DNA from: a virus
Taxonomy: Duplodnaviria > Caudoviricetes
Virus record (IMG/VR): IMGVR_UViG_3300042566_001028
Span: 14,281 to 78,280 of that record
DNA: 64,000 nucleotides
Reading direction: 5' to 3' (one strand)
Each line of letters begins with the position of its first letter. Within the stretch, counting starts at the first letter, position 1. Positions 25,237-58,235 of this stretch are shown piece after piece. Position numbers and translations under genes: made by a program. The notes beneath the pieces were generated by a model that was given only the letters and a program-made list of their open reading frames with translations, did no database searches and was not told the origin of the DNA.

Positions 25237-26859
<1,623 letters not shown>

Positions 26860-43732: not shown

Positions 43733-44368
43733 ATGAAAAAAGTATTATTGTTAGTTACACTATTAGTTATTAGTGTTACATTATTTGCACAAGATGTAGT
43801 AGTATTAAAACATACAAATTATACATCACATTTCAGTAAGTCAAAAAAATATCCAGTAATGGTAGAGTGGTGGGAAACCAAAGCAAAAGTAGGTTGTCCA
43901 ACTCCATTACCTCGTAAAGATAATTTCAAACCAGACCCATTGTTACCAGTTGAAACTAATATTGGAAACGACTATGTTGGTAGTGGGTATGATAGAGGAC
44001 ATTTGATGCCAGCAAAATCAAATCAATGCCAAACTCAAGCAGTTCAAGATGAGTGTTTCTACTTTTCTAATATGGTAGCACAAACACATAGATTGAATGC
44101 AGGAGATTGGAAATCATTGGAAACCTTAACAAGAGAAATTGCTGCAAGAGAAGATAGTGTTCACATTTGGGCAGGTAATGTTGGTGAGATTAAAAGAATT
44201 GGTAAAGTTGCAGTTCCAAAACAATGTTGGAAAGTTGTATATTCAAAGACATCAAACGAATGGATGTTTTTCTTATTTGAAAACGACTTATCAAATCCAG
44301 ATGGAATAAATAATAATAAAGTTTTAAGAGAAGATATAGAAAAATTAACAGGATTAAAATTTAAGTAA
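43733..44368 (+). CDS. secreted DNA/RNA non-specific endonuclease (NucA/EndoG-like)
   Basis: signal peptide; GYDRGHL, SNMVAQ, LNAGDWKSLE. Confidence 0.92.
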   Translation: MKKVLLLVTLLVISVTLFAQDVVVLKHTNYTSHFSKSKKYPVMVEWWETKAKVGCPTPLPRKDNFKPDPLLPVETNIGNDYVGSGYDRGHLMPAKSNQCQTQAVQDECFYFSNMVAQTHRLNAGDWKSLETLTREIAAREDSVHIWAGNVGEIKRIGKVAVPKQCWKVVYSKTSNEWMFFLFENDLSNPDGINNNKVLREDIEKLTGLKFK

Positions 44369-44370
44369 AG

Positions 44371-44811
44371 ATGTTCGTACCAAACCACTTACACCTATTG
44401 GTAAAAGGGTATATGAAAACCCCACCAAAAACGGAAAAAACCTTAAACATATGGTTTACACAATTAGTACAAAACGTAGGAATGAAAGTGGTAGCAGGGC
44501 CCACATCAGTCTATGTAAAGGAACCAGGTAATGAAGGAATAACCGGAACCGTTACTCTAGCAACCTCACATGCTTCAATTCATGTGTGGGATAATGAAAA
44601 TCCGGCCATGTTTCAATTTGATTTATATAGTTGTTCAAACTTCACACCAATGCAAGTGTTAGACCACATTGACGATTGGTTTGGATTGAATGAAGCACAT
44701 TGGCAATTCATTGATAGAAATGGTAGTGAGTTTTTAATATTAGATTCAGGTCACTATAAAAAAAGTTTGAATAGTAAAATAAAAGATATATTCAAAAAGA
44801 AAAAATTCTAA
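44371..44811 (+). CDS. speD: S-adenosylmethionine decarboxylase proenzyme-like
   Basis: LATSHASIHVW, FDLYSC. Confidence 0.8.
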   Translation: MFVPNHLHLLVKGYMKTPPKTEKTLNIWFTQLVQNVGMKVVAGPTSVYVKEPGNEGITGTVTLATSHASIHVWDNENPAMFQFDLYSCSNFTPMQVLDHIDDWFGLNEAHWQFIDRNGSEFLILDSGHYKKSLNSKIKDIFKKKKF

Positions 44812-45465
44812 ATGAGTTATTTAGTAGCAAACATCCCACCAATAGAAGTTTATGTAGATAAAAGATTTCTATATGATTTTCAAAAAGATGAGATGGGTAA
44901 TTATTTGGGTGATGGTGAATGGGAAAGAGGTCATTGGGTTAGTGTAAAATCAATTCCAAATCGTGCACTATTATTTGAAACTTATATTGACAAGTTTGGT
45001 GCAGTATATGACAAATTACCTATACATGCATTCCGTTGGAGACCATTAGAAACGACAGATAAGGTGTTTCCTTTGGATTTCTTACAACTTTGGGATTGTT
45101 TATCATATAACATATCAGTCATTGAAAAAAGGGTATTAAGGGGTGTTAAAACCTATACTACAATGAAAGACCATTCAGTAGTAGAGGGTGATTATCTTTT
45201 TACAATTGATACATCACATTCTGACCCAAATGAAATTGATTGTGGGTGGAGTGAAACACCAAATGAACATAAATGTTATAATGTGTCTAAATTGGAAAAT
45301 GGCCAACTATGTGCACAACCAAATAATAGGACTAGATTTTATCAACCTAGTAGAACTAATGGTGTTTCTTTAATACCTTATTTTAGATATTCTACAAAAG
45401 TGTGGAAATGTGAGGATTTTGGAAAGTGGAGACCATCCGATACAAATTGGGATTACACAGAATAG
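44812..45465 (+). CDS. conserved phage hypothetical protein
   Basis: YLVANIPP, GAVYDKLPIHAF, LQLWDC, AQPNNR. Confidence 0.7.
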   Translation: MSYLVANIPPIEVYVDKRFLYDFQKDEMGNYLGDGEWERGHWVSVKSIPNRALLFETYIDKFGAVYDKLPIHAFRWRPLETTDKVFPLDFLQLWDCLSYNISVIEKRVLRGVKTYTTMKDHSVVEGDYLFTIDTSHSDPNEIDCGWSETPNEHKCYNVSKLENGQLCAQPNNRTRFYQPSRTNGVSLIPYFRYSTKVWKCEDFGKWRPSDTNWDYTE

Positions 45466-45505
45466 TAATATATAACTTGTTGATTACTAACAATTTATAA
45501 GTTTA

Positions 45506-45537
45506 TTTGGTAATTCGGGATATTTATCGTATATTTG
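45506..45537 (+). promoter_or_regulatory. Bacteroidota sigma70 promoter, full consensus
   Basis: TTTG-N20-TATATTTG. Confidence 0.75.
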
Positions 45538-45591
45538 AGTATATCAAAGAAAAATTGATACTTATTGTTATAACAACAAAATAATTTTAAA

Positions 45592-45783
45592 ATGGAAAAT
45601 CAAAAATATTGTATAATTGATGTAACTTTAGATATCAATAATCACATTGGAGTAGTAGATTTATCTTTAGAAGAAGCACAACAATGGATAATGGACAATC
45701 AAACTCAATTAGAAACTCCAGTAACCATAGGTGAAACAACTTTCCCTGCTCAATTCATATATAAATCATATCCTTTAGTTTAA
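45592..45783 (+). CDS. hypothetical protein
   Basis: ORF between promoter and tmRNA. Confidence 0.55.
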   Translation: MENQKYCIIDVTLDINNHIGVVDLSLEEAQQWIMDNQTQLETPVTIGETTFPAQFIYKSYPLV

Positions 45784-45785
45784 TT

Positions 45786-46149
45786 GGGGATGCTTTGGAA
45801 TTGATTGCTATGTAAATGGTAATATCACATGTAGACAAAGTAAGAATGTCTTTAAATACTTACAAAACAATAACTGACGAAAAGTCAACTATGACTTACA
45901 ACGACTTAATGGCGTTTGTAGGTATGGATTACGCTGTAGCAGCCTAACCAATCCCGCACACATCGTGGGACTTTAAATAGAATGTGAAATTGAGTGGAAA
46001 CTAACTGAACTCAAAATCGAGTTAGAATATTGATTATAATGAAATAATAAAACTTATATATTTGTCAGTTGTGAATAACTGAATAAACATGTGAGATGCT
46101 GATATTATTGATTTCTAGTAAGACACGAGTTCGACTCTCGTCATCTCCA
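45786..46149 (+). ncRNA. ssrA: tmRNA, predicted tag (A)DEKSTMTYNDLMAFVGMDYAVAA
   Basis: GGGGATG/CATCTCC-A acceptor with G3:U, T-arm ACGAGTTCGACTCTCGT, ATAACT-GAC resume site, tag ORF 45876-45947 ending YAVAA. Confidence 0.93.
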
Positions 46150-46209
46150 CAAATTTATTTAAGTATGGTAATCCTACTAACACAACTAGCGGACTTAAAT
46201 AAAAAAATA

Positions 46210-46241
46210 TTTGGTAACTTAAAAAAGTTATCGTATATTAC
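46210..46241 (+). promoter_or_regulatory. promoter for tRNA-fMet
   Basis: TTTGGTAAC...CGTATATTAC. Confidence 0.7.
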
Positions 46242-46250
46242 ATTTAATAT

Positions 46251-46322
46251 CGCAGGATAGAGCAGAGGTAGCTCACGTGGCTCATAACCACAAGGTCGGA
46301 GGTTCGAATCCTTCTCCTGCAA
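46251..46322 (+). tRNA. tRNA-fMet (CAT), initiator type
   Basis: C1:A72 mismatch, CTCATAA loop, GGTTCGAATCC. Confidence 0.9.
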
Positions 46323-46326
46323 CAAA

Positions 46327-46412
46327 TAAGATGATTGGTTGAAGCCATCAAATAATAAAACCGATTGAGTGACCTACCCAGTAGGGAAGAAAGCCGGACA
46401 CCGATTATCTTA
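46327..46412 (+). ncRNA. unidentified structured RNA (~86 nt)
   Basis: 13-bp terminal helix TAAGATGATTGGT/ACCGATTATCTTA, inner CCTAC/GTAGG hairpin. Confidence 0.45.
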
Positions 46413-46430
46413 AAAGTTTTTTGAAATAAA

Positions 46431-46565
46431 TTTGGTAATGTTAAAAATGTTTCGTATATTACATAAGTAAATGAGAAACAATAGGTGATGAAAGATACTC
46501 GTTATTAAATTTACAAAAAAAGTTTTAAATAAATTTGGCAGAATAAAAAATTATTCGTATATTTA
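46431..46565 (+). promoter_or_regulatory. two tandem promoters upstream of the large ncRNA
   Basis: TTTGG..CGTATATT at 46431-46462 and 46534-46565. Confidence 0.65.
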
Positions 46566-46613
46566 TTAAAACCGAAAGAAAGTTCTTTAAAAGATTGAAA
46601 ATATTTTACATAG

Positions 46614-47475
46614 TGAGTTCGTCTCACATAGTAAACAACCGCCGCCTATGGTGGTTAAATAAACTACGAAAGTAGGATAAAGTGGATGTATTAAGTGATA
46701 CATCTGCGGCTACTCTCCCCGTAAGGAGAGACTAGCTTGAGTAGGCAAGTGGGATATCATTCTCGCTAAAGTAGTTGAGGGTAACACTTTAGGCGAATAG
46801 TGGGAATGGTTGGGGTAGTATAGATACTCCGACTGAGTTGGGAACAACAATAAGAATAACCCATAGAATATCAGTAAGAAGTGTAGACTTAATCCCTCTA
46901 CATCATTGCGGTATTCAGTTTCAAAGTTATCTTAACATCAAGCCATCCGAAAGGACGCAAGATAAGATAGTGTACAAGTGGTGTTGTTACCATCCTTATA
47001 TAGAGTTTGCCAAAACCTATATTTGAAGATGACTTAAAAAACCGCAGTAGGGATATTGCATCGGGTAGTTTAGTATTCTCTCGTTCAAAAGATGAGGGAG
47101 CTAGTGGTAAACCACTACCTGAATAATTCTATAAACTAAAACTCAATTTTGAATAGCATTTTCAAAAAATACAATTTAAAAATTAAGCTTAAGTGTTTAC
47201 CAGTTGCAGATGAAAGGTGTGTACATAGTTAAGAGTTGTTCTTAGCCACGATACCTCCGCAAGAGGTCTGTGATTCTACCGAAAGGTTTCTAATTCCGCA
47301 AGAACTAATCAGGCTGCGAGGCTTGAAGAAAATGATTAAGTAGAGAGTAATCGGCAACTTAAAGACTGATAGTCTAAAATCATCCACATTGAATTGGTAC
47401 TACTCAAAAGGTAGTGGAAACGGAAGGAAACAAATAATCTTTCTAAAGCTGGTTCACCAAATAGAGTATTCTCAT
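46614..47475 (+). ncRNA. large structured RNA, GOLLD-like (~860 nt)
   Basis: no credible ORF; elevated GC; roughly 20 hairpins, several with GNRA-type loops; two domains split by an AT-rich linker; adjacent to tRNAs. Confidence 0.7.
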
Positions 47476-47485
47476 CTATTTATAA

Positions 47486-47557
47486 GCGGTTTTAGTGTAA
47501 TAGTAGCACTCCTAGCATTCCAGTTAGGGAGAGGTGGGGCAGAACCATTTTACCGCT
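47486..47557 (+). tRNA. aberrant tRNA-Gly-like gene
   Basis: GCG/CGC acceptor with U73, cloverleaf layout; no D-loop GG, T-loop GGCAGAA, irregular ATTCCA loop. Confidence 0.55.
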
Positions 47558-47656
47558 CAATACGAAGATTTTCGTGGTCTACCTTTTTGGCTGTTTCTTA
47601 CTCAACAGTCGTTTCGTTTAAATTAGACCTAAAAGATAGAACGATATAATAAAATT

Positions 47657-47851
47657 GGAAGTAAGTGTTTTGGGGAGGATTTTGACACTAAAAATGCAAT
47701 CAGAAACGATACACGATTGCCGGATTCGTAGTCGTACACTACAAGAGTTACCGCCTCCTATAAACTCTATTTTTGTGCAAAGTAATTTAATGAGGCTAGT
47801 ATTAACCGGAGCATGACTTGACGTGGCGTATTTTGAAATTGAATTACTTTT
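47657..47851 (+). ncRNA. unidentified multi-stem RNA (~195 nt)
   Basis: AAGTAA/TTACTT closure; AGTGTT/GACACT, GCAATC/GATTGC, GTAGT/ACTAC, GAGTT/AACTC stems; GGAGG/CCTCC loop-loop complementarity. Confidence 0.5.
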
Positions 47852-47886
47852 TAACATTAAACAAAAAAATTAGATATATATTAACA

Positions 47887-47976
47887 ATGAGAACTCTAAC
47901 ACATACACTTTGTAGTCAACCGAATCAGATTTGGATTGGCAATTTCGTGCAGTTAGAGGATACGGATGTAGGATAA
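47887..47976 (+). CDS. putative attenuator leader peptide MRTLTHTLCSQPNQIWIGNFVQLEDTDVG
   Basis: 29-codon ORF overlapping alternative pairing segments, ending ~30 nt before a terminator. Confidence 0.6.
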   Translation: MRTLTHTLCSQPNQIWIGNFVQLEDTDVG

Positions 47977-48002
47977 AATGTAATAATTTTTGAATAATAT
48001 TG

Positions 48003-48036
48003 AAAAACCTCTGACTAAAAAGTTAGGGGTTTTTTT
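48003..48036 (+). terminator. intrinsic terminator (attenuator 3:4 hairpin) directly before the tRNA array
   Basis: CCTCTGACT-AAAA-AGTTAGGGG plus T7. Confidence 0.85.
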
Positions 48037-48041
48037 GTTTT

Positions 48042-48123
48042 GGGAGTATCGCATAGTGGCAATTGCGGCTGACTGTAAATCAGCTCTCTTTCGAGTTCGG
48101 TGGTTCGAGTCCATCTACTCTCA
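48042..48123 (+). tRNA. tRNA-Tyr (GTA)
   Basis: cloverleaf, CTGTAAA loop, long variable arm. Confidence 0.93.
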
Positions 48124-48129
48124 CAAAAT

Positions 48130-48203
48130 TCTCACTTAGCTCAGTTGGTTAGAGCGTCGCACTGTTAATGCGAAAGTCCTAAGTTCAAGTCTTAGAGTGA
48201 GAG
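48130..48203 (+). tRNA. tRNA-Asn (GTT)
   Basis: cloverleaf, CTGTTAA loop, G73. Confidence 0.93.
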
Positions 48204-48212
48204 CAAACAAAA

Positions 48213-48285
48213 GCGGATGTAGCTCAATTGGTAGAGTGCGTTCCTTCCAAGTACGAAGTTGCAGGTTCGAGCCCTGTCATCCGCT
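48213..48285 (+). tRNA. tRNA-Gly (TCC)
   Basis: GCGGATG/CATCCGC-T, CTTCCAA loop. Confidence 0.93.
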
Positions 48286-48290
48286 CAAAC

Positions 48291-48353
48291 GGTTACCAAT
48301 CCGGAACACGCCTGGAAGTTTAGTGTATTAGCACACCAGGAAATGGTGATAAC
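48291..48353 (+). ncRNA. unidentified small structured element within the tRNA array
   Basis: TTACCA/TGGTGA, CCTGG/CCAGG, GTGT/GCAC nested stems. Confidence 0.35.
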
Positions 48354-48365
48354 AAAATTGGAAAT

Positions 48366-48436
48366 TGTTCGGTGGTGTAACGGTAGCACAATTGTTTTTG
48401 GTACAATTAGTTCTGGTTCGAATCCAGCCCGAATAA
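48366..48436 (+). tRNA. tRNA-Gln (TTG)
   Basis: ATTGT-TTTTGGT-ACAAT arm, GGTTCGAATCC. Confidence 0.9.
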
Positions 48437-48441
48437 CATAT

Positions 48442-48510
48442 GCGTGGTAGGCTATGGCAGCCAATTGGTCTCCAAAACCAAAGGAGAGGGTTCAATTCCT
48501 TCACTGCGTG
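48442..48510 (+). tRNA. tRNA-Trp (CCA)
   Basis: TTGGT-CTCCAAA-ACCAA arm, G73; short D arm, G:U-rich acceptor. Confidence 0.82.
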
Positions 48511-48515
48511 CAATT

Positions 48516-48588
48516 AGTTCTATGGTGTAATTGGATAGCACGAAACACTACGGATGTTTTAGTTTGGGTTCGATTCCTAATAGGACTA
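48516..48588 (+). tRNA. tRNA-Arg (ACG)
   Basis: AAACA-CTACGGA-TGTTT arm. Confidence 0.9.
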
Positions 48589-48594
48589 CAATAT

Positions 48595-48664
48595 GGTCAG
48601 TTTGGTCGTGGAGGCCGGTGGGACTGCAAATCTTACGGAGTTGGTTCGATTCCAACATTGACCT
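48595..48664 (+). tRNA. tRNA-Cys (GCA)
   Basis: CTGCAAA loop, U73. Confidence 0.88.
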
Positions 48665-48669
48665 CAAAT

Positions 48670-48744
48670 GGTGTTTGAAGCATTAAGGTGATGCGTCGGT
48701 TTGTGGAGCCGGATAAGACGGGTCGGTACCGTCCTTACACCCCA
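48670..48744 (+). tRNA. tRNA-His (GTG)
   Basis: G-1 with C73 and encoded CCA, TTGTGGA loop; atypical T-loop GTCGGTA. Confidence 0.82.
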
Positions 48745-48746
48745 AC

Positions 48747-48820
48747 ACCCGTATGGCGGAATTGGCATACGCAGTGGTCTTAGAAGCCATAAGTTACAGG
48801 TTCGACTCCTGTTACGGGTA
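48747..48820 (+). tRNA. tRNA-Leu (TAG) with short variable loop
   Basis: GCGGAATTGGCATACGC D arm, CTTAGAA loop, A73. Confidence 0.88.
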
Positions 48821-48826
48821 CAAATG

Positions 48827-48858
48827 TTTGGTAAAGTAAATTATTATTCGTATATTTA
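48827..48858 (+). promoter_or_regulatory. promoter for the second tRNA block
   Basis: TTTGGTAA...CGTATATTTA. Confidence 0.7.
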
Positions 48859-48863
48859 ATTTA

Positions 48864-48987
48864 TAAGGTTGATTGGGAACAAAAGTAGCCCGCTAAAACG
48901 AGTTAGTGAAAATCTAATACGCTACTACCGGTTAGTAAAGCCAATCATAAAAGTAATCGTCCACGCACCCATCTTTTACTTTCCTTA
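48864..48987 (+). ncRNA. unidentified structured RNA (~125 nt) heading the second tRNA block
   Basis: TAAGG/CCTTA, TGATTGG/CCAATCA, AGTAGC/GCTACT, AAAGTAA/TTACTTT stems. Confidence 0.5.
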
Positions 48988-48990
48988 AAT

Positions 48991-49062
48991 GCTCAGTTCG
49001 ACTAAGGGTTAGGTCACATCCCTTTCACGGATGTAATACGGGTTCGAATCCCGTACTGAGTA
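48991..49062 (+). tRNA. tRNA-Glu (TTC)
   Basis: CATCC-CTTTCAC-GGATG arm. Confidence 0.93.
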
Positions 49063-49067
49063 CAATA

Positions 49068-49140
49068 GCCCGAGTAGCTCAGCTGGTAGAGCAACTGATT
49101 TGTAATCAGTAGGTCGTAAGTTCGATTCTTATCTTGGGCT
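49068..49140 (+). tRNA. tRNA-Thr (TGT)
   Basis: ACTGA-TTTGTAA-TCAGT arm. Confidence 0.94.
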
Positions 49141-49144
49141 CAAT

Positions 49145-49218
49145 GGATGGGTAGTTCAGTTGGTTAGAATGTCGGCTTGTCACGCCGAAGGTCGCGGGTT
49201 CGAGTCCCGTCCCGTCCG
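49145..49218 (+). tRNA. tRNA-Asp (GTC)
   Basis: TCGGC-TTGTCAC-GCCGA arm, G73. Confidence 0.94.
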
Positions 49219-49223
49219 CAATG

Positions 49224-49295
49224 GGTCTGTTAGTTAAATGGATATAACTTCTCACTTCTAATGAGATGTTCGTGGTTCGATTCCACGACGGACTA
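49224..49295 (+). tRNA. tRNA-Arg (TCT)
   Basis: TCTCA-CTTCTAA-TGAGA arm. Confidence 0.92.
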
Positions 49296-49301
49296 CAATA
49301 T

Positions 49302-49408
49302 GCCGGAGTGGCGGAATGATAGTATGTACAACTATTAGACGTTCCCTTCCTAGGTGGGTGGTGTATCCGAAATGGACATCGTGTGAGTAACCAATCTCTC
49401 CTCCGGCA
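49302..49408 (+). tRNA. aberrant tRNA-Leu-like gene with a hairpin inserted in the D loop
   Basis: perfect GCCGGAG/CTCCGGC-A acceptor, TGGCGGAA..AGACG, CCTAGGT loop, long variable arm, non-canonical T loop. Confidence 0.55.
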
Positions 49409-49410
49409 CC

Positions 49411-49497
49411 TTATGGGCTTTGGTGATACAGCCATAAAGAGAGACAGATGTTTCTCATTCACTAAAATAGGTAGGTGACTCCACACCTGCTTATTTT
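49411..49497 (+). ncRNA. unidentified pseudoknotted element
   Basis: TTATGG/CCATAA hairpin whose TGGTGA segment complements TCACTA; GAGAC/TTTCTC and AAATAGGTAGGTG/CACCTGCTTATTT hairpins. Confidence 0.4.
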
Positions 49498-49502
49498 CTT
49501 TC

Positions 49503-49576
49503 GGGAATGTAGCTCAGTTGGTTAGAGCAAAAAACTCATAATTTTGAGGTCACAGGTTCGAGCCCTGTCTTTCCCA
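49503..49576 (+). tRNA. tRNA (CAT), probably Ile2 (lysidine) rather than elongator Met
   Basis: GGG-starting acceptor, A73, CTCATAA loop. Confidence 0.85.
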
Positions 49577-49584
49577 CAAAAAGA

Positions 49585-49616
49585 TTTGGAAATATAAAAA
49601 AATAGTTGTATATTTA
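49585..49616 (+). promoter_or_regulatory. Bacteroidota sigma70-like promoter
   Basis: TTTGG...GTATATTTA. Confidence 0.6.
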
Positions 49617-49632
49617 TTAAAATTAGAAAATT

Positions 49633-49902
49633 ATGAATTGGTTTGTTATTTATTATGTTATCAGTATCCTTTATTGTTTTTATCAGTTAAATGTTAAATA
49701 CAAAGAAAGAGGAGTTGAATATAGTTCTCCCGAATTGGATGCAATTATGGTATTGATTATGGCATGGGTATTAGCCCCTGTCGATGTATCTATTACTTGG
49801 ATTAGAATGGTCAAAAAAGCAGAGGAAGCTAGAATAAGACAATCATCTACTACCTTTTTAGATGCAGATACTTTCAGAAACGAAGAGACACATATATATT
49901 AG
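49633..49902 (+). CDS. small membrane protein
   Basis: two hydrophobic segments. Confidence 0.6.
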   Translation: MNWFVIYYVISILYCFYQLNVKYKERGVEYSSPELDAIMVLIMAWVLAPVDVSITWIRMVKKAEEARIRQSSTTFLDADTFRNEETHIY

Positions 49903-49909
49903 TAGAATA

Positions 49910-49996
49910 GGAAGCTTGCCAGAGTGGTTGAATGGAACGGTCTTGAAAACCGTCATACTGGAAACGGTATCTGGGGTTCGAATCCCTGAGCTTCCG
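49910..49996 (+). tRNA. tRNA-Ser (TGA)
   Basis: ACGGT-CTTGAAA-ACCGT arm, long variable arm, G73. Confidence 0.94.
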
Positions 49997-50009
49997 CAAA
50001 ATAAAAGTT

Positions 50010-50519
50010 ATGACACTAAAAGAAGCAACTGCCGAATTACATAGTAAGGCAGAAAAAATGATGTTCAATCAAAGAATGTTTAGAGGTGAGTTAAGTCAAC
50101 ATGAATACTTAAATTATCTTATTCAACAATCTTACATTTTTCAAGAAATAGAAAATAGAAATTTACCACATCCAAATTTGAAAAGATTAAGTTCAATCAA
50201 TGAGGATATAAACGAATTGGGTGGATATACATTTAAGATAAGTAAACCAACAACGGATTATGTTGTATATTTGGGTGACTTAAATCAAAGTTCATTAAAT
50301 GCACACATCTATTTAAATTACTTAGCAATTATGTTCGGTGGACAAATGATGAAATCAAAAGTTCCAGGTAGTGGTAAGATGTATGAGTTTGATGGTGATA
50401 TGATGGAATTGATTGGTAGTGTAAGAGCAATTCAAAATGACGAAATGGCTGACGAAGTAAATAAAGGATTTCAGTATATTATAAACATATTAGATGAGTT
50501 ACAAACAAACGCTGGATAA
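50010..50519 (+). CDS. hemO: heme oxygenase (biliverdin-producing)
   Basis: LKEATAELHSKAE (proximal His), AHIYLNY...FGGQM. Confidence 0.88.
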   Translation: MTLKEATAELHSKAEKMMFNQRMFRGELSQHEYLNYLIQQSYIFQEIENRNLPHPNLKRLSSINEDINELGGYTFKISKPTTDYVVYLGDLNQSSLNAHIYLNYLAIMFGGQMMKSKVPGSGKMYEFDGDMMELIGSVRAIQNDEMADEVNKGFQYIINILDELQTNAG

Positions 50520-51123
50520 TATAGCTTCTGAATTAGAATCTATAATGCAATTAACAGCTGCATTTGAAATACCTACTGAGGATTTTGGGTGGAGTAATAA
50601 AAGATATGTAGGTGACAATTTTCGTATGGCACATATTGAAAGGTATAGTGATAAGGCTTTAGAGGTTCTACACTTTACTTGTTTTCCAAATCCTACATTT
50701 CAACATCCTATTTTTGGGTTTGATATTATTACAACCGATAAAAAACCATTGGCAGCATTTATGGATTGGTCACCTGTTGATAATAAAGTTAGTATAGAAA
50801 GTAGATATACATTTGAAAAACCATATCCATTACCTGAATGGGCAAAGTTAATATTTTCTCCAAATGCATTAGCAATAATCCCAAATGATTACGAAATGGT
50901 TAGTTTATCAAATAATGTTATTGAAAGTTTTGAAATTTATTTAGATGTATTAAACAATTCAAAAGAAAAACCCAATAGAACCGATTATATAGTGGCAGCT
51001 CAAAACCGATATTGTGATAATCAACAAAAGAACGAAAGAACTTATAATGTGTTGAAATCCAAATTAGGTAAAGATAGAGCTAAATACTTTATGGAAAATA
51101 TCCTATTTCCGAAGATAGTATAA
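50494..51123 (+). CDS. ferredoxin-dependent bilin reductase (PcyA/PcyX-like)
   Basis: LEVLHFTCFP, PIFGFDII, AAFMDWSP, LPEWA..IFS, QNRYC..QQKNERT; adjacent to hemO. Confidence 0.85.
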   Translation: MSYKQTLDNIASELESIMQLTAAFEIPTEDFGWSNKRYVGDNFRMAHIERYSDKALEVLHFTCFPNPTFQHPIFGFDIITTDKKPLAAFMDWSPVDNKVSIESRYTFEKPYPLPEWAKLIFSPNALAIIPNDYEMVSLSNNVIESFEIYLDVLNNSKEKPNRTDYIVAAQNRYCDNQQKNERTYNVLKSKLGKDRAKYFMENILFPKIV

Positions 51124-56951: not shown

Positions 56952-58235
56952 ATGAGAAATACACAAAGTAACAAAAAAGTTAAAACTACAAAAACAATGG
57001 TAAAAAGAACAACAACAAAAGTGAAAGACTTTACGGTAGGTTTCACAAACGAAATTTACAAAGTAATTCAAGTAGGTAGAACATTCGCAATGTTAACTAC
57101 AAACAATCAGCCGGTAACTAAGTTAGTCGGTGTAAGTAAGCAAACTATGAAAAAAGCAATGGATGAGAATAAAGCAATCCAAGCTTACATAGGTAAAACA
57201 GGTAAGTTATCCTACAAAATGGTAGAGATGGATGAGTTCAAAAAACATTCAGCTACTATATCGGATGAGGCGTGTGATTCAGTACAAGAAGCATTTGAGA
57301 CACATGACTTACTAAAAGAATTTATCCACACAAAGGGTAAGGACTTAAAACCAAACGGACTATTCATTGAAGAATTGAAGTGGAAGTATTTACTCCGTTC
57401 AGCAGTTAGAGGTAAGAATATCTTAATGACAGGTCCAACGGGTTGTGGTAAGACATTAGCTGCACAATCGTTAGTGAAGTCTTTGAAACGACCTGATTTC
57501 TATTTCAACTTAGGTGCTACACAAGATGCGAGAGCAACCTTAATCGGTAACACACATTTCAACAAAGAGAACGGAACATTCTTTAGTGAGTCTGCATTCG
57601 TTAAAGCAATCAAAACTCCTAACGCAATTATCTTATTGGATGAGTTGAGTAGAGCTCACCCAGAAGCTGCGAATATCCTTATGACAGTATTAGACGCAGG
57701 TCAAAGATACTTACGTTTGGATGAGGCAGAAGGTTCACCAATTATCAAAGTAGCATCGGGCGTGACGTTTATTGCGACGGCGAATATTGGTGGAGAGTAT
57801 ACTGCAACGAGAGTAATGGATAGAGCATTGATGGATAGATTCGTTCAAATCGAAATGGACTTATTAGACAAAGAGGGTGAACTTGCCTTATTGAAGTTTA
57901 AGTTCCCTGAAGCTGATGAGTATTCATTGAACGCATTAGCAGAGATTGCTGATACTACTCGTCAATTGATTAAGACTGACGCGAGTAAGATTTCAACTAT
58001 CGTTTCTACGAGGGTGAATGTGGAAGCAGCCGGACTTATCTATGATGGTTTCACATTGTTCGAAGCAGCAAACATTGCAATCTTACCTTATTTCAGTAAT
58101 GATGGTGGGTTAGATAGTGAGAGAGTATTTATGACTCAATTACTACAAAAATATATTAAGTCGGATGATGAATCTCAACTTTTCAATGAAGTGAAAGATG
58201 ATGAGACAACCGATGACGAAACTATCGTTTGGTAG
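56952..58235 (+). CDS. MoxR/CbbQ/CobS-like AAA+ ATPase
   Basis: GPTGCGKT, LLDELSRA, ATAN, DRALMDRF, STR. Confidence 0.92.
   Translation: MRNTQSNKKVKTTKTMVKRTTTKVKDFTVGFTNEIYKVIQVGRTFAMLTTNNQPVTKLVGVSKQTMKKAMDENKAIQAYIGKTGKLSYKMVEMDEFKKHSATISDEACDSVQEAFETHDLLKEFIHTKGKDLKPNGLFIEELKWKYLLRSAVRGKNILMTGPTGCGKTLAAQSLVKSLKRPDFYFNLGATQDARATLIGNTHFNKENGTFFSESAFVKAIKTPNAIILLDELSRAHPEAANILMTVLDAGQRYLRLDEAEGSPIIKVASGVTFIATANIGGEYTATRVMDRALMDRFVQIEMDLLDKEGELALLKFKFPEADEYSLNALAEIADTTRQLIKTDASKISTIVSTRVNVEAAGLIYDGFTLFEAANIAILPYFSNDGGLDSERVFMTQLLQKYIKSDDESQLFNEVKDDETTDDETIVW

What the first reader, a model, noticed from the sequence alone, without database searches (positions are those of the whole stretch)
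46614..47475. ~860-nt GOLLD-like giant structured RNA with two dedicated promoters
Seen: an ORF-free, GC-elevated stretch with roughly 20 hairpins (e.g. CTAC-GAAA-GTAG, TCC-GAAA-GGA, CCTC-CGCAA-GAGG, ACC-GAAA-GGT, TACTAC/GTAGTG) and long-range helices (TAGAAT/ATTCTA, TGCGGT/ACCGCA, ACCAG/CTGGT). An AT-rich linker at ~47135-47185 splits it into two domains, and two tandem consensus promoters precede it. Established: GOLLD RNAs are ~800-nt RNAs found beside tRNA genes in phages and lake metagenomes; their function is unknown and they can form RNA-only multimeric cages. The assignment to GOLLD rests on size, architecture and context.
Basis: partly seen in the sequence, partly recalled or inferred. 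Interest (0 to 1): 0.78.

Follow-up and report, generated by a model that had tools for sequence, protein, structure and literature searches.

The report
GOLLD RNA gene in lake phage
This stretch is a genuine copy of GOLLD, an already described giant structured RNA of phages that is known to build RNA-only cages, sitting among the tRNA genes of an uncultivated freshwater phage, so it is a good but ordinary member of a known family.

Summary
Rfam's GOLLD model (RF02032) matches window 47061-47478 (+) over its full length at 280.8 bits against a cut-off of 150 (E 4e-79). The Rfam model covers only the conserved 3' half. The 5' half (about 46582-47060) is homologous to the 5' domains of other GOLLD loci and is strongly supported by covariation. 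In 13 sequences, 149 consensus pairs are 97.8% paired, against 37-47% when the partners are slid. 66 pairs show compensatory changes, against 13-20 in the slid controls. The AT-rich stretch is the family's variable linker. Contigs from 4 of 4 metatranscriptome runs cover the RNA. The host record is a 78-kb fragment of a freshwater phage carrying a tmRNA, 15 tRNAs and cyanophage-type auxiliary genes. The upstream promoter directly precedes a separate conserved hairpin motif; in 5 of 14 aligned loci it is the only promoter before GOLLD. Function is inferred from the literature: a homo-oligomeric RNA cage. Novelty is low. Three side observations are more novel: a leader hairpin motif, a tRNA-Gly-derived tRNA-like element and a 3' hairpin element, none called by Rfam.

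The parts
46432..46460 (+). Promoter-like site P1 (TTGGTA-N17-TATATT), upstream of the leader hairpin
   Evidence: the motif occurs 12 times in the window, all on the + strand, against 0.05 expected. It is conserved in the relatives.
46467..46514 (+). Leader hairpin motif: closing stem GTAAAT/ATTTAC around an invariant tip AGGTGATGAAAGATACTCG (46483-46501)
   Evidence: 137 sites in the 239 loci held; 77 of them lie 456-802 nt upstream of a GOLLD 3' domain. In 93 unique sequences, 9 of the 12 stem pairs show compensatory changes. No Rfam hit at E up to 1.
46535..46563 (+). Promoter-like site P2 (TTGGCA-N17-TATATT), nearest to GOLLD; predicted start about 46570
   Evidence: Present in 9 of 14 aligned loci and absent in L020, L006, L033, L088 and L039. 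The start site is inferred, not measured.
46582..47060 (+). GOLLD 5' domain (not covered by the Rfam model)
   Evidence: blastn finds homologous 5' domains in 90 of 120 motif-selected loci. For alignment A1, which spans window 46575-47135, RNAalifold gives 149 pairs in 24 helices, 66 of them compensatory. 97.8% of cells are paired against 37-47% when the partners are slid, and 0 of 500 shuffles reach the observed values.
47061..47122 (+). Hairpin at the start of the Rfam GOLLD model (model positions 1-59)
   Evidence: alignment. It covaries in A1 (helices 22-24).
47123..47198 (+). Variable A/U-rich linker between the two domains; no tRNA inside
   Evidence: aligned to the unpaired region of the model; conservation dip; no tRNA called here.
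47199..47478 (+). Conserved GOLLD 3' core
   Evidence: the whole match 47061-47478 scores 280.8 bits, E 4.2e-79, with no truncation.
47485..47557 (+). tRNA-Gly-derived tRNA-like element, 6 nt after the GOLLD 3' end; a possible processing handle
   Evidence: It folds as a cloverleaf, but ARAGORN and Rfam do not call it. It sits where L064 and L033 carry a tRNA-Gly(UCC). The odd form is conserved in 9 other loci.
47780..47852 (+). 3' hairpin element (12-bp covarying closing stem, conserved core GAGCATGACTTG..GGCGTATTTTGAA, then a U-run); a candidate terminator of the GOLLD unit
   Evidence: All 35 viral contigs with the core have it 84-384 nt downstream of a GOLLD 3' domain. In 28 sequences it has 21 consensus pairs, 9 compensatory. 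No Rfam hit at E up to 1.

Best explanation
Window 46570/46582-47478 (+) encodes a full-length GOLLD RNA of about 900 nt, a member of Rfam family RF02032. It lies in the RNA-gene island (tmRNA, tRNA-Met, GOLLD, then 14 more tRNAs) of an uncultivated freshwater phage. Shown here: family membership, a two-domain covarying secondary structure, a variable linker, and presence in RNA libraries. Inferred: it is transcribed rightward from the phage's own promoter class, from P2 at 46535-46563 and possibly also by read-through from P1. Its 3' end is probably set by tRNA-processing enzymes cutting at the tRNA-like element that starts 6 nt downstream, or by the U-run hairpin at 47780-47852. Inferred from solved relatives (papers, not tested here): copies of the RNA assemble without protein into a closed homo-oligomeric cage. 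The 5' domains form the caps, the 3' domains form the rings, and the linker faces inward. My odds are about 0.6 for a cage of 12-14 copies. What the cage does is unknown. Given the constant placement among tRNA and tmRNA genes, my best guess is a role in phage control of translation, such as holding or presenting tRNAs or ribosomal parts during lytic growth (odds about 0.3).
For: - **Family match.** Rfam gives GOLLD at 280.8 bits (cut-off 150), E 4.2e-79, model 1-416/416, not truncated (one search gives the same). It is the only GOLLD match in the 78,280-b virus record.
- **Relatives.** 12 of 12 nearest relatives score 270.7-305.9 bits, and 10 of 12 also carry a tmRNA upstream. 7 of 12 have tRNA-Met just upstream.
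- **5' domain.** Homologous in 90 of 120 loci, and the 3' domain in 109 of 120. 149 pairs, 66 compensatory; 97.8% paired against 37-47% in slid controls.
- **Stability.** Fold z-score -4.72.
- **Coding.** No ORF of 90 aa or more, and the small ORFs have no PHROG match.
- **Promoters.** The promoter motif occurs 12 times against 0.05 expected.
- **RNA libraries.** Contigs of 4 of 4 metatranscriptome runs (4 studies) cover 46652-47535. Some pieces are identical to the window: X18 records 20 and 21 match 46809-46903 and 46940-47063 with 0 differences.
- **3' end.** Many other GOLLD loci have an intrinsic terminator shortly after the last hairpin. This clade has a tRNA-Gly or a tRNA-like element there instead.
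- **Literature (passages read).** env-38 GOLLD (833 nt, downstream of a tRNA-Met) forms a D7 14-mer cage. A Streptococcus agalactiae GOLLD forms a 12-mer. The family has a conserved 3' region, a variable 5' region and a disordered linker, and sits near tRNA islands in phages.
Against: - **No end or strand data.** Logan contigs cannot show starts, ends, strand or level, and an RNA library can hold DNA. A discrete 900-nt RNA is therefore not shown.
- **Mixed sources.** Many of the laid contigs are only 90-95% alike, so they come from related GOLLDs rather than this phage.
- **Assembly not tested.** Oligomer number differs between solved GOLLDs: 10, 12 or 14. I could not map the published contact residues onto this sequence, because the supplementary alignments are closed and no RNA structure tool is on hand.
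- **No adjacent terminator.** No intrinsic terminator directly follows the RNA in the window, so the 3' end is a guess.
- **Function.** No function is known for any member of the family.
Confidence: 0.9

Rival explanations
1. It is the same GOLLD RNA, but the functional unit is a longer composite transcript. This would run from P1 (about 46467) through the leader hairpin, GOLLD, the tRNA-like element and on to the U-run hairpin at 47780-47852, about 1.4 kb. GOLLD would then be matured, or kept tethered to the tRNA-like element, by tRNA-processing enzymes.
For: In 5 of 14 aligned loci P2 is absent and the leader hairpin lies about 10 nt from the conserved GOLLD 5' block. 77 of 110 evaluable leader sites have a GOLLD downstream. 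The 3' element follows GOLLD in 35 of 35 contigs. A tRNA-Gly or tRNA-like element starts 6-11 nt after GOLLD in the window, L064 and L033. The tRNA-like form is conserved in 9 other loci. Papers report tRNAs embedded in the GOLLD linker of other members.
Against: The window has its own promoter copy, P2, between the leader and GOLLD. 33 of 110 evaluable leader sites have no GOLLD downstream, so the leader is not specific to GOLLD. The window carries a 220-nt insertion (47560-47780), shared only with L047, between the tRNA-like element and the 3' element. No data on transcript ends exist.
Confidence: 0.35
2. It is a decayed, non-functional GOLLD relic carried passively in the tRNA island.
For: The neighbouring tRNA-Gly copy has decayed into a form that tRNA finders reject, so decay does occur at this locus.
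Against: It gives a full-length, untruncated match at nearly twice the family cut-off. The pairing is maintained by compensatory changes across relatives that are only 70-80% identical. Near-identical pieces are present in RNA libraries.
Confidence: 0.03
3. It is another kind of large structured RNA (group I or II intron, RNase P RNA, ROOL, OLE) or a protein-coding or chance G+C-rich stretch.
For: None found. Only the size and hairpin density are shared with these.
Against: No such Rfam family matches 46323-48001 even at E up to 1. No exon-like flanks or intron-encoded ORF are present, and there is no ORF of 90 aa or more. The substitution pattern is that of RNA helices.
Confidence: 0.01

Closest known systems
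GOLLD RNA, Rfam RF02032; solved example env-38 GOLLD (833 nt, D7 14-mer cage; Kretsch et al., bioRxiv 10.1101/2024.12.08.627333, passages read; PDB code 9MEE as listed in PMC12990946)
   Same: It gives a full-length match to the family model. It has a two-domain build: a 5' domain of about 480 nt, then a hairpin, a linker and a 3' core totalling 418 nt, where env-38 is split 420 + 413. It has an unconserved linker and lies downstream of a tRNA-Met in a phage tRNA island. It carries an invariant GAAA-capped hairpin in the 5' domain and CGCAA loops in the 3' domain. In the 36-sequence alignment one of these loops switches between CGCAA and UCGAA. That matches the GC/CG switch the paper reports for loop L21a, but the mapping is my inference.
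   Different: This clade has about 60 extra conserved nucleotides at the 5' end, including a covarying hairpin at 46613-46627. A tRNA-like element stands directly after the 3' end, where many other loci have a terminator. Oligomer state is unknown here.
Streptococcus agalactiae GOLLD (700 nt, 12-mer; 3' domain alone mostly a 10-mer), as summarised in PMC12990946 (passages read)
   Same: It belongs to the same family and has the same 3' domain architecture.
   Different: The paper says that RNA lacks P9, P11a-c and P21b. The window aligns to the whole Rfam model without large deletions. It therefore looks closer to the full consensus, but the helix numbering could not be mapped here.
Mycobacterium / Mycolicibacterium GOLLD in tRNA arrays (Morgado et al. 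2020, seen only as a citation in PMC12990946; PMC6582537 seen in the search listing)
   Same: GOLLD is embedded in a tRNA array.
   Different: Those members are reported to carry a tRNA inside the linker. The window's linker holds none, and its tRNA-like element lies after the 3' end.
ROOL RNA (the other phage-associated cage-forming RNA; Kretsch et al.)
   Same: It is large, ornate, phage-borne, near tRNA genes and forms RNA-only cages.
   Different: Its sequence and structure are unrelated, and there is no ROOL match in the window.

Membership tests
GOLLD RNA (Rfam RF02032) | Score at or above the curated gathering threshold of the family's covariance model | tested here: met
   280.8 bits against 150; E 4.2e-79. 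One search gives the same place in the whole record.
GOLLD RNA (Rfam RF02032) | Complete conserved 3' region (all model positions, no truncation) | tested here: met
   Model positions 1-416 of 416 matched at 47061-47478, accuracy 0.96.
GOLLD RNA (Rfam RF02032) | A large, less conserved but structured 5' region, giving a total length of about 800 nt or more | tested here: met
   The conserved block is 46582-47060. 149 pairs, 66 compensatory, 97.8% paired against 37-47% in slid controls. Total length is about 900 nt.
GOLLD RNA (Rfam RF02032) | Variable, unstructured linker between the two regions | tested here: met
   47123-47198 is A/U-rich, aligned to the unpaired stretch of the model, and conservation is 0.41-0.51 at 47141-47180.
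GOLLD RNA (Rfam RF02032) | Location in a phage or prophage next to tRNA genes | tested here: met
   The record is a virus record. A tmRNA and 15 tRNAs lie on the same strand. Phage-type auxiliary genes flank the island.
GOLLD RNA (Rfam RF02032) | Made as RNA | tested here: inconclusive
   Contigs of 4 of 4 metatranscriptome runs cover 46652-47535, some with 0 differences. Contigs show neither strand nor ends, and RNA libraries can hold DNA.
GOLLD RNA (Rfam RF02032) | Protein-free assembly into a closed homo-oligomer (10-14 copies in solved members) | not testable with these tools
   Known only from the papers. No RNA 3D or complex tool is on hand, and the supplementary alignments are closed.
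GOLLD RNA (Rfam RF02032) | Rise in level during phage lytic growth | not testable with these tools
   Stated for another member in Kretsch et al.. The phage here is uncultivated.
Self-splicing introns, RNase P RNA, ROOL, OLE (considered) | Match to the respective Rfam models | tested here: not met
   No such match in 45500-50300 at E up to 1.

The most novel reading that the evidence does not exclude
In this freshwater phage clade, GOLLD may be one part of a conserved four-part RNA cassette. The parts are a leader hairpin with an invariant 19-nt tip, GOLLD itself, a tRNA-Gly-derived tRNA-like element with an abnormal anticodon loop and T-loop, and a 73-nt hairpin element with a conserved core and a U-run. 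Rfam calls none of the three accessory parts at E up to 1 in the window. The leader motif also heads other odd tRNA-like RNAs and caps terminator hairpins in other phages. It could therefore be a general phage module for making, marking or stabilising non-coding RNAs, for instance as a protein or RNase recognition site. The tRNA-like element could be the handle that sets GOLLD's 3' end, or a tethered cargo.
Probability: 0.3. Interest if true: 0.5.

Novelty: already known. Interest (0 to 1): 0.3.

Why it matters
GOLLD is one of the largest bacterial or phage RNAs with no known function. It has attracted attention since cryo-EM showed that it forms RNA-only cages. This locus adds no new kind of thing. 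It is a clean, full-length, lake-phage member of the very group the family was named after. Its value is practical. It offers a well-delimited sequence with 12 close and about 100 more distant relatives for covariation work, evidence of presence in freshwater metatranscriptomes, and a conserved neighbourhood. That neighbourhood is tmRNA, tRNA-Met, leader hairpin, GOLLD, tRNA-Gly or tRNA-like element, 3' element, then a tRNA array. It points to links between GOLLD biogenesis and the tRNA-processing machinery that could be tested.

Tried and rejected
1. **Leader pairing with the GOLLD 3' terminal loop.** In the window a 15-bp interrupted duplex can be drawn between the leader hairpin tip and the loop GAGUAUUCUCAUC. 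I rejected it. The leader's variable dinucleotide does not covary with the loop, and loci with the same leader have different loops.

2. **Leader tip as a tiny ORF** (ATG AAA GAT ACT CG.). Rejected. The reading frame length after it is not conserved, there is no synonymous variation, and the ATG directly abuts the GGTG.

No support.

4. **blastn of 46300-48000 against 50,697 GenBank phage records.** No match, so no named close relative. A tblastn of the AAA-ATPase (56952-58235) gives at best 55.2% identity over 66% of the query, to a Microcystis phage. That is too distant to name a host.

5. **Uncovered flanks in the RNA runs.** In the four RNA runs laid, the flanking protein-coding stretches (44000-45767 and 50188-50600) had almost no cover, and so did 47536-47977. 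Depth figures sum contigs of many related phages and are not used to rank expression.

6. **Small ORFs in or beside the RNA** (62, 86, 79, 29 and 63 aa). No PHROG family.

7. **Mapping the published bridges B1-B10 onto the window.** Not possible, because helix numbering and alignments are in figures and supplements that I could not see.

Full report
**What is there.** Window 46614-47475 lies in a 4.5-kb stretch (45466-50009) with no + strand ORF of 90 aa or more. The stretch is filled with RNA genes on the + strand. They are a tmRNA (45786-46152), tRNA-Met (46251-46323) and 14 further tRNAs (48042-49997). The window is bases 14281-78280 of a 78,280-b virus record that CheckV rates 36% complete. 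Flanking genes include an Endonuclease_NS nuclease, S-adenosylmethionine decarboxylase, a ferredoxin-family protein, heme oxygenase, a ferredoxin-dependent bilin reductase, GroEL, glycosyltransferases and a CobS-like AAA ATPase. As far as I recall, this is the auxiliary-gene set typical of aquatic cyanophage-like phages; no call here tested that. The best named relative of the ATPase is a Microcystis phage at 55% identity, which is too distant to name a host. Of 24 public runs listed, 20 hold the stretch or a part of it. 14 hold half or more of its sampled words, and most of those are labelled lake water or freshwater metagenome.

**Identity.** Rfam's covariance model for GOLLD (RF02032) matches 47061-47478 over all 416 model positions at 280.8 bits. 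The gathering score is 150 and E is 4.2e-79. A permissive scan of 45500-50300 at E up to 1 adds no intron, RNase P, ROOL or OLE match. The Rfam model covers only the family's conserved 3' region: a hairpin (47061-47122), the unpaired linker (47123-47198) and the 3' core (47199-47478).

**The 5' half.** I scanned IMG/VR contigs for a conserved 3'-domain motif. Of these 120 loci, blastn finds the window's 3' part in 109 and its 5' part (46560-47060) in 90. The nearest loci are L064 (94-96% identity) and L047 (92-93%). A graded series follows, down to about 70% (L075, L016, L012, L020, L099, L119, L009, L006, L033/L088, L039). All 12 relatives tested score as full-length GOLLD, at 270.7-305.9 bits. 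Conservation against the more distant ten runs from about 46582 to about 47520, with a dip at the linker.

RNAalifold on the window plus 12 relatives (46575-47135) gives 149 pairs in 24 helices, and 66 pairs carry compensatory double changes. In the counting test, 97.8% of cells are paired, against 37-47% when the 3' partners are slid by 1-3 columns. 66 pairs show double changes, against 13-20 in the slid controls. None of 500 shuffles reaches the observed values. These 13 sequences are related, and the structure was predicted on the same alignment. The slid control is therefore the fairer one, and it is still decisive. The single-sequence fold has z = -4.72.

Its three long-range helices fail. 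76.5% of cells are paired against 76.9% in shuffles, and there is one double change against 0.6 expected. Two of the helices are broken in 8-9 of 13 sequences. ACCGCA instead belongs to a local covarying hairpin (47044-47059). TAGAAT belongs to helix 46866-46877/46906-46916. ACCAG and CTGGT are each paired elsewhere in Rfam's consensus. ACC-GAAA-GGT is aligned to an internal loop in that consensus.

**Promoters.** The two sites (46432-46460 and 46535-46563) belong to a motif, TTGGYA-N17-TATATT, that occurs 12 times in the window. All 12 are on the + strand, against 0.05 expected. Others lie before the tmRNA unit, before tRNA-Met and inside the tRNA array. The two sites are not simply tandem promoters for GOLLD.

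Between them lies a hairpin (46467-46514) whose 19-nt tip, AGGNNATGAAAGATACTCG, is invariant. Over all 239 loci held, there are 137 sites. 77 have a GOLLD 3' domain 456-802 nt downstream. 27 have too little downstream sequence to tell. 33 have room but no GOLLD 5' or 3' domain.

In 5 of 14 aligned loci P2 is absent and the hairpin sits about 10 nt before the conserved GOLLD 5' block. In the 33 loci without GOLLD, the motif does one of two things. In some it precedes odd tRNA-like RNAs, and in others it forms the tip of terminator hairpins. The closing stem covaries, with 9 of 12 pairs compensatory in 93 unique sequences, and it uses G-U pairs on the + strand. Rfam has nothing there.

**The 3' side.** Many GOLLD loci have an intrinsic terminator shortly after the last hairpin. 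In the window's clade the RNA is followed after 6-11 nt by a tRNA-Gly(UCC) in L064 and L033. In the window, L047, L020, L099, L119 and four more loci it is followed by a tRNA-Gly-derived element (47485-47557). That element still folds as a cloverleaf, but it has a 6-nt (or 8-nt) anticodon loop and a T-loop without the usual motif. ARAGORN and Rfam do not call it.

Then comes a 220-nt insertion shared only with L047. After it lies a 73-nt hairpin element (47780-47852) with a covarying 12-bp stem, a conserved core and a U-run. It lies 84-384 nt downstream of GOLLD in 35 of 35 contigs that carry its core. A small ORF (47887-47976) and a strong terminator-like hairpin (48002-48035) follow, before the tRNA array.

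**Expression.** Six RNA runs hold 41-47% of the sampled words of 46560-47560. I laid four of them, from four studies. In all four, contigs cover 46652-47535, and some pieces are identical to the window: X18 records 20 and 21 have 0 differences over 95 and 124 nt. Many other pieces are only 90-95% alike and come from related GOLLDs. Contigs give no strand, ends or level. This shows presence in RNA libraries, not a discrete transcript.

**How it probably works.** From the papers (passages read), solved GOLLDs assemble without protein into closed cages. env-38 forms a 14-mer, the S. agalactiae RNA forms a 12-mer, and the 3' domain alone forms mostly a 10-mer. The 5' domains form the caps and the linker faces inward. 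The family lies near tRNA islands, and no function is known. The window has every element of the Rfam consensus and a 5' domain of the common type. I therefore infer a cage of 12-14 copies (odds about 0.6) and a translation-related role (odds about 0.3). Neither was testable here.

**Verdict.** The leader hairpin motif, the tRNA-like element and the 3' element are the parts most worth a further look.

Noticed in passing
window 46467-46514 (tip 46483-46501); also L006, L008, L113, L143, L203 and others: A hairpin motif with an invariant tip, AGGNNATGAAAGATACTCG, and a covarying closing stem. 77 of them lie upstream of a GOLLD. 33 have room but no GOLLD: some of these lie upstream of odd tRNA-like RNAs, and others form the tip of terminator hairpins. 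No Rfam match at E up to 1 in the window.
   Followed up: partly
window 47485-47557: A tRNA-Gly(UCC)-derived tRNA-like element starting 6 nt after GOLLD. It folds as a cloverleaf, but its anticodon loop has 6 (or 8) nt and its T-loop is GGCAGAA. ARAGORN and Rfam do not call it. It is conserved in 9 other loci, and L119 has it in tandem with a normal tRNA-Gly.
   Followed up: partly
window 47780-47852: A 73-nt hairpin element with a 12-bp covarying stem, the conserved core GAGCATGACTTG..GGCGTATTTTGAA and a U-run. It lies 84-384 nt downstream of GOLLD in 35 of 35 viral contigs that carry the core. No Rfam match.
   Followed up: partly
window 47560-47780: A 220-nt insertion between the tRNA-like element and the 3' element. 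Among the 120 loci of the first scan it is shared only with L047. One RNA contig of run X15 covers 47588-47745 with 13 differences. It has no Rfam or PHROG match.
   Followed up: no
window 47887-47976 and 48002-48035: A small ORF of 29 aa (MRTLTHT...LEDTDVG). It is longer in relatives such as L020 but has the same start and the same LEDTDVG end. A 15-bp terminator-like hairpin with a T-run follows. The ORF has no PHROG family.
   Followed up: no
window 3964, 20206, 21535, 30664, 45507, 46211, 46432, 46535, 48828, 51181, 54351, 56885 (start of each site): A phage-specific promoter-like motif, TTGGYA-N17-TATATT. It occurs 12 times, all on the + strand, against 0.05 expected by chance.
   Followed up: partly
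window 45786-46152: A phage-borne tmRNA with the tag peptide DEKSTMTYNDLMAFVGMDYAVAA. 10 of 12 related GOLLD loci also carry a tmRNA upstream, so tmRNA, (tRNA-Met), GOLLD is a conserved order.
   Followed up: partly
window 43733-45465 and 50010-51123: Auxiliary genes flank the RNA island: a non-specific endonuclease, S-adenosylmethionine decarboxylase, a ferredoxin-family protein, heme oxygenase and a ferredoxin-dependent bilin reductase. Elsewhere in the window there are GroEL (25240-26859) and a CobS-like ATPase (56952-58235).
   Followed up: no
L214, L148, L137, L129, L139, L142, L144, L171, L185, L188 (100-250 nt after their leader motif): tRNA-like RNAs with a hairpin inserted in the D-loop and an unusual anticodon loop, ending ...GGTTCGAxCCCACTCCCAACCACCA. 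ARAGORN does not call them. The insert-free version in L153 scores 41.2 bits as tRNA, while L137 and L129 give no Rfam match at E up to 0.01.
   Followed up: no
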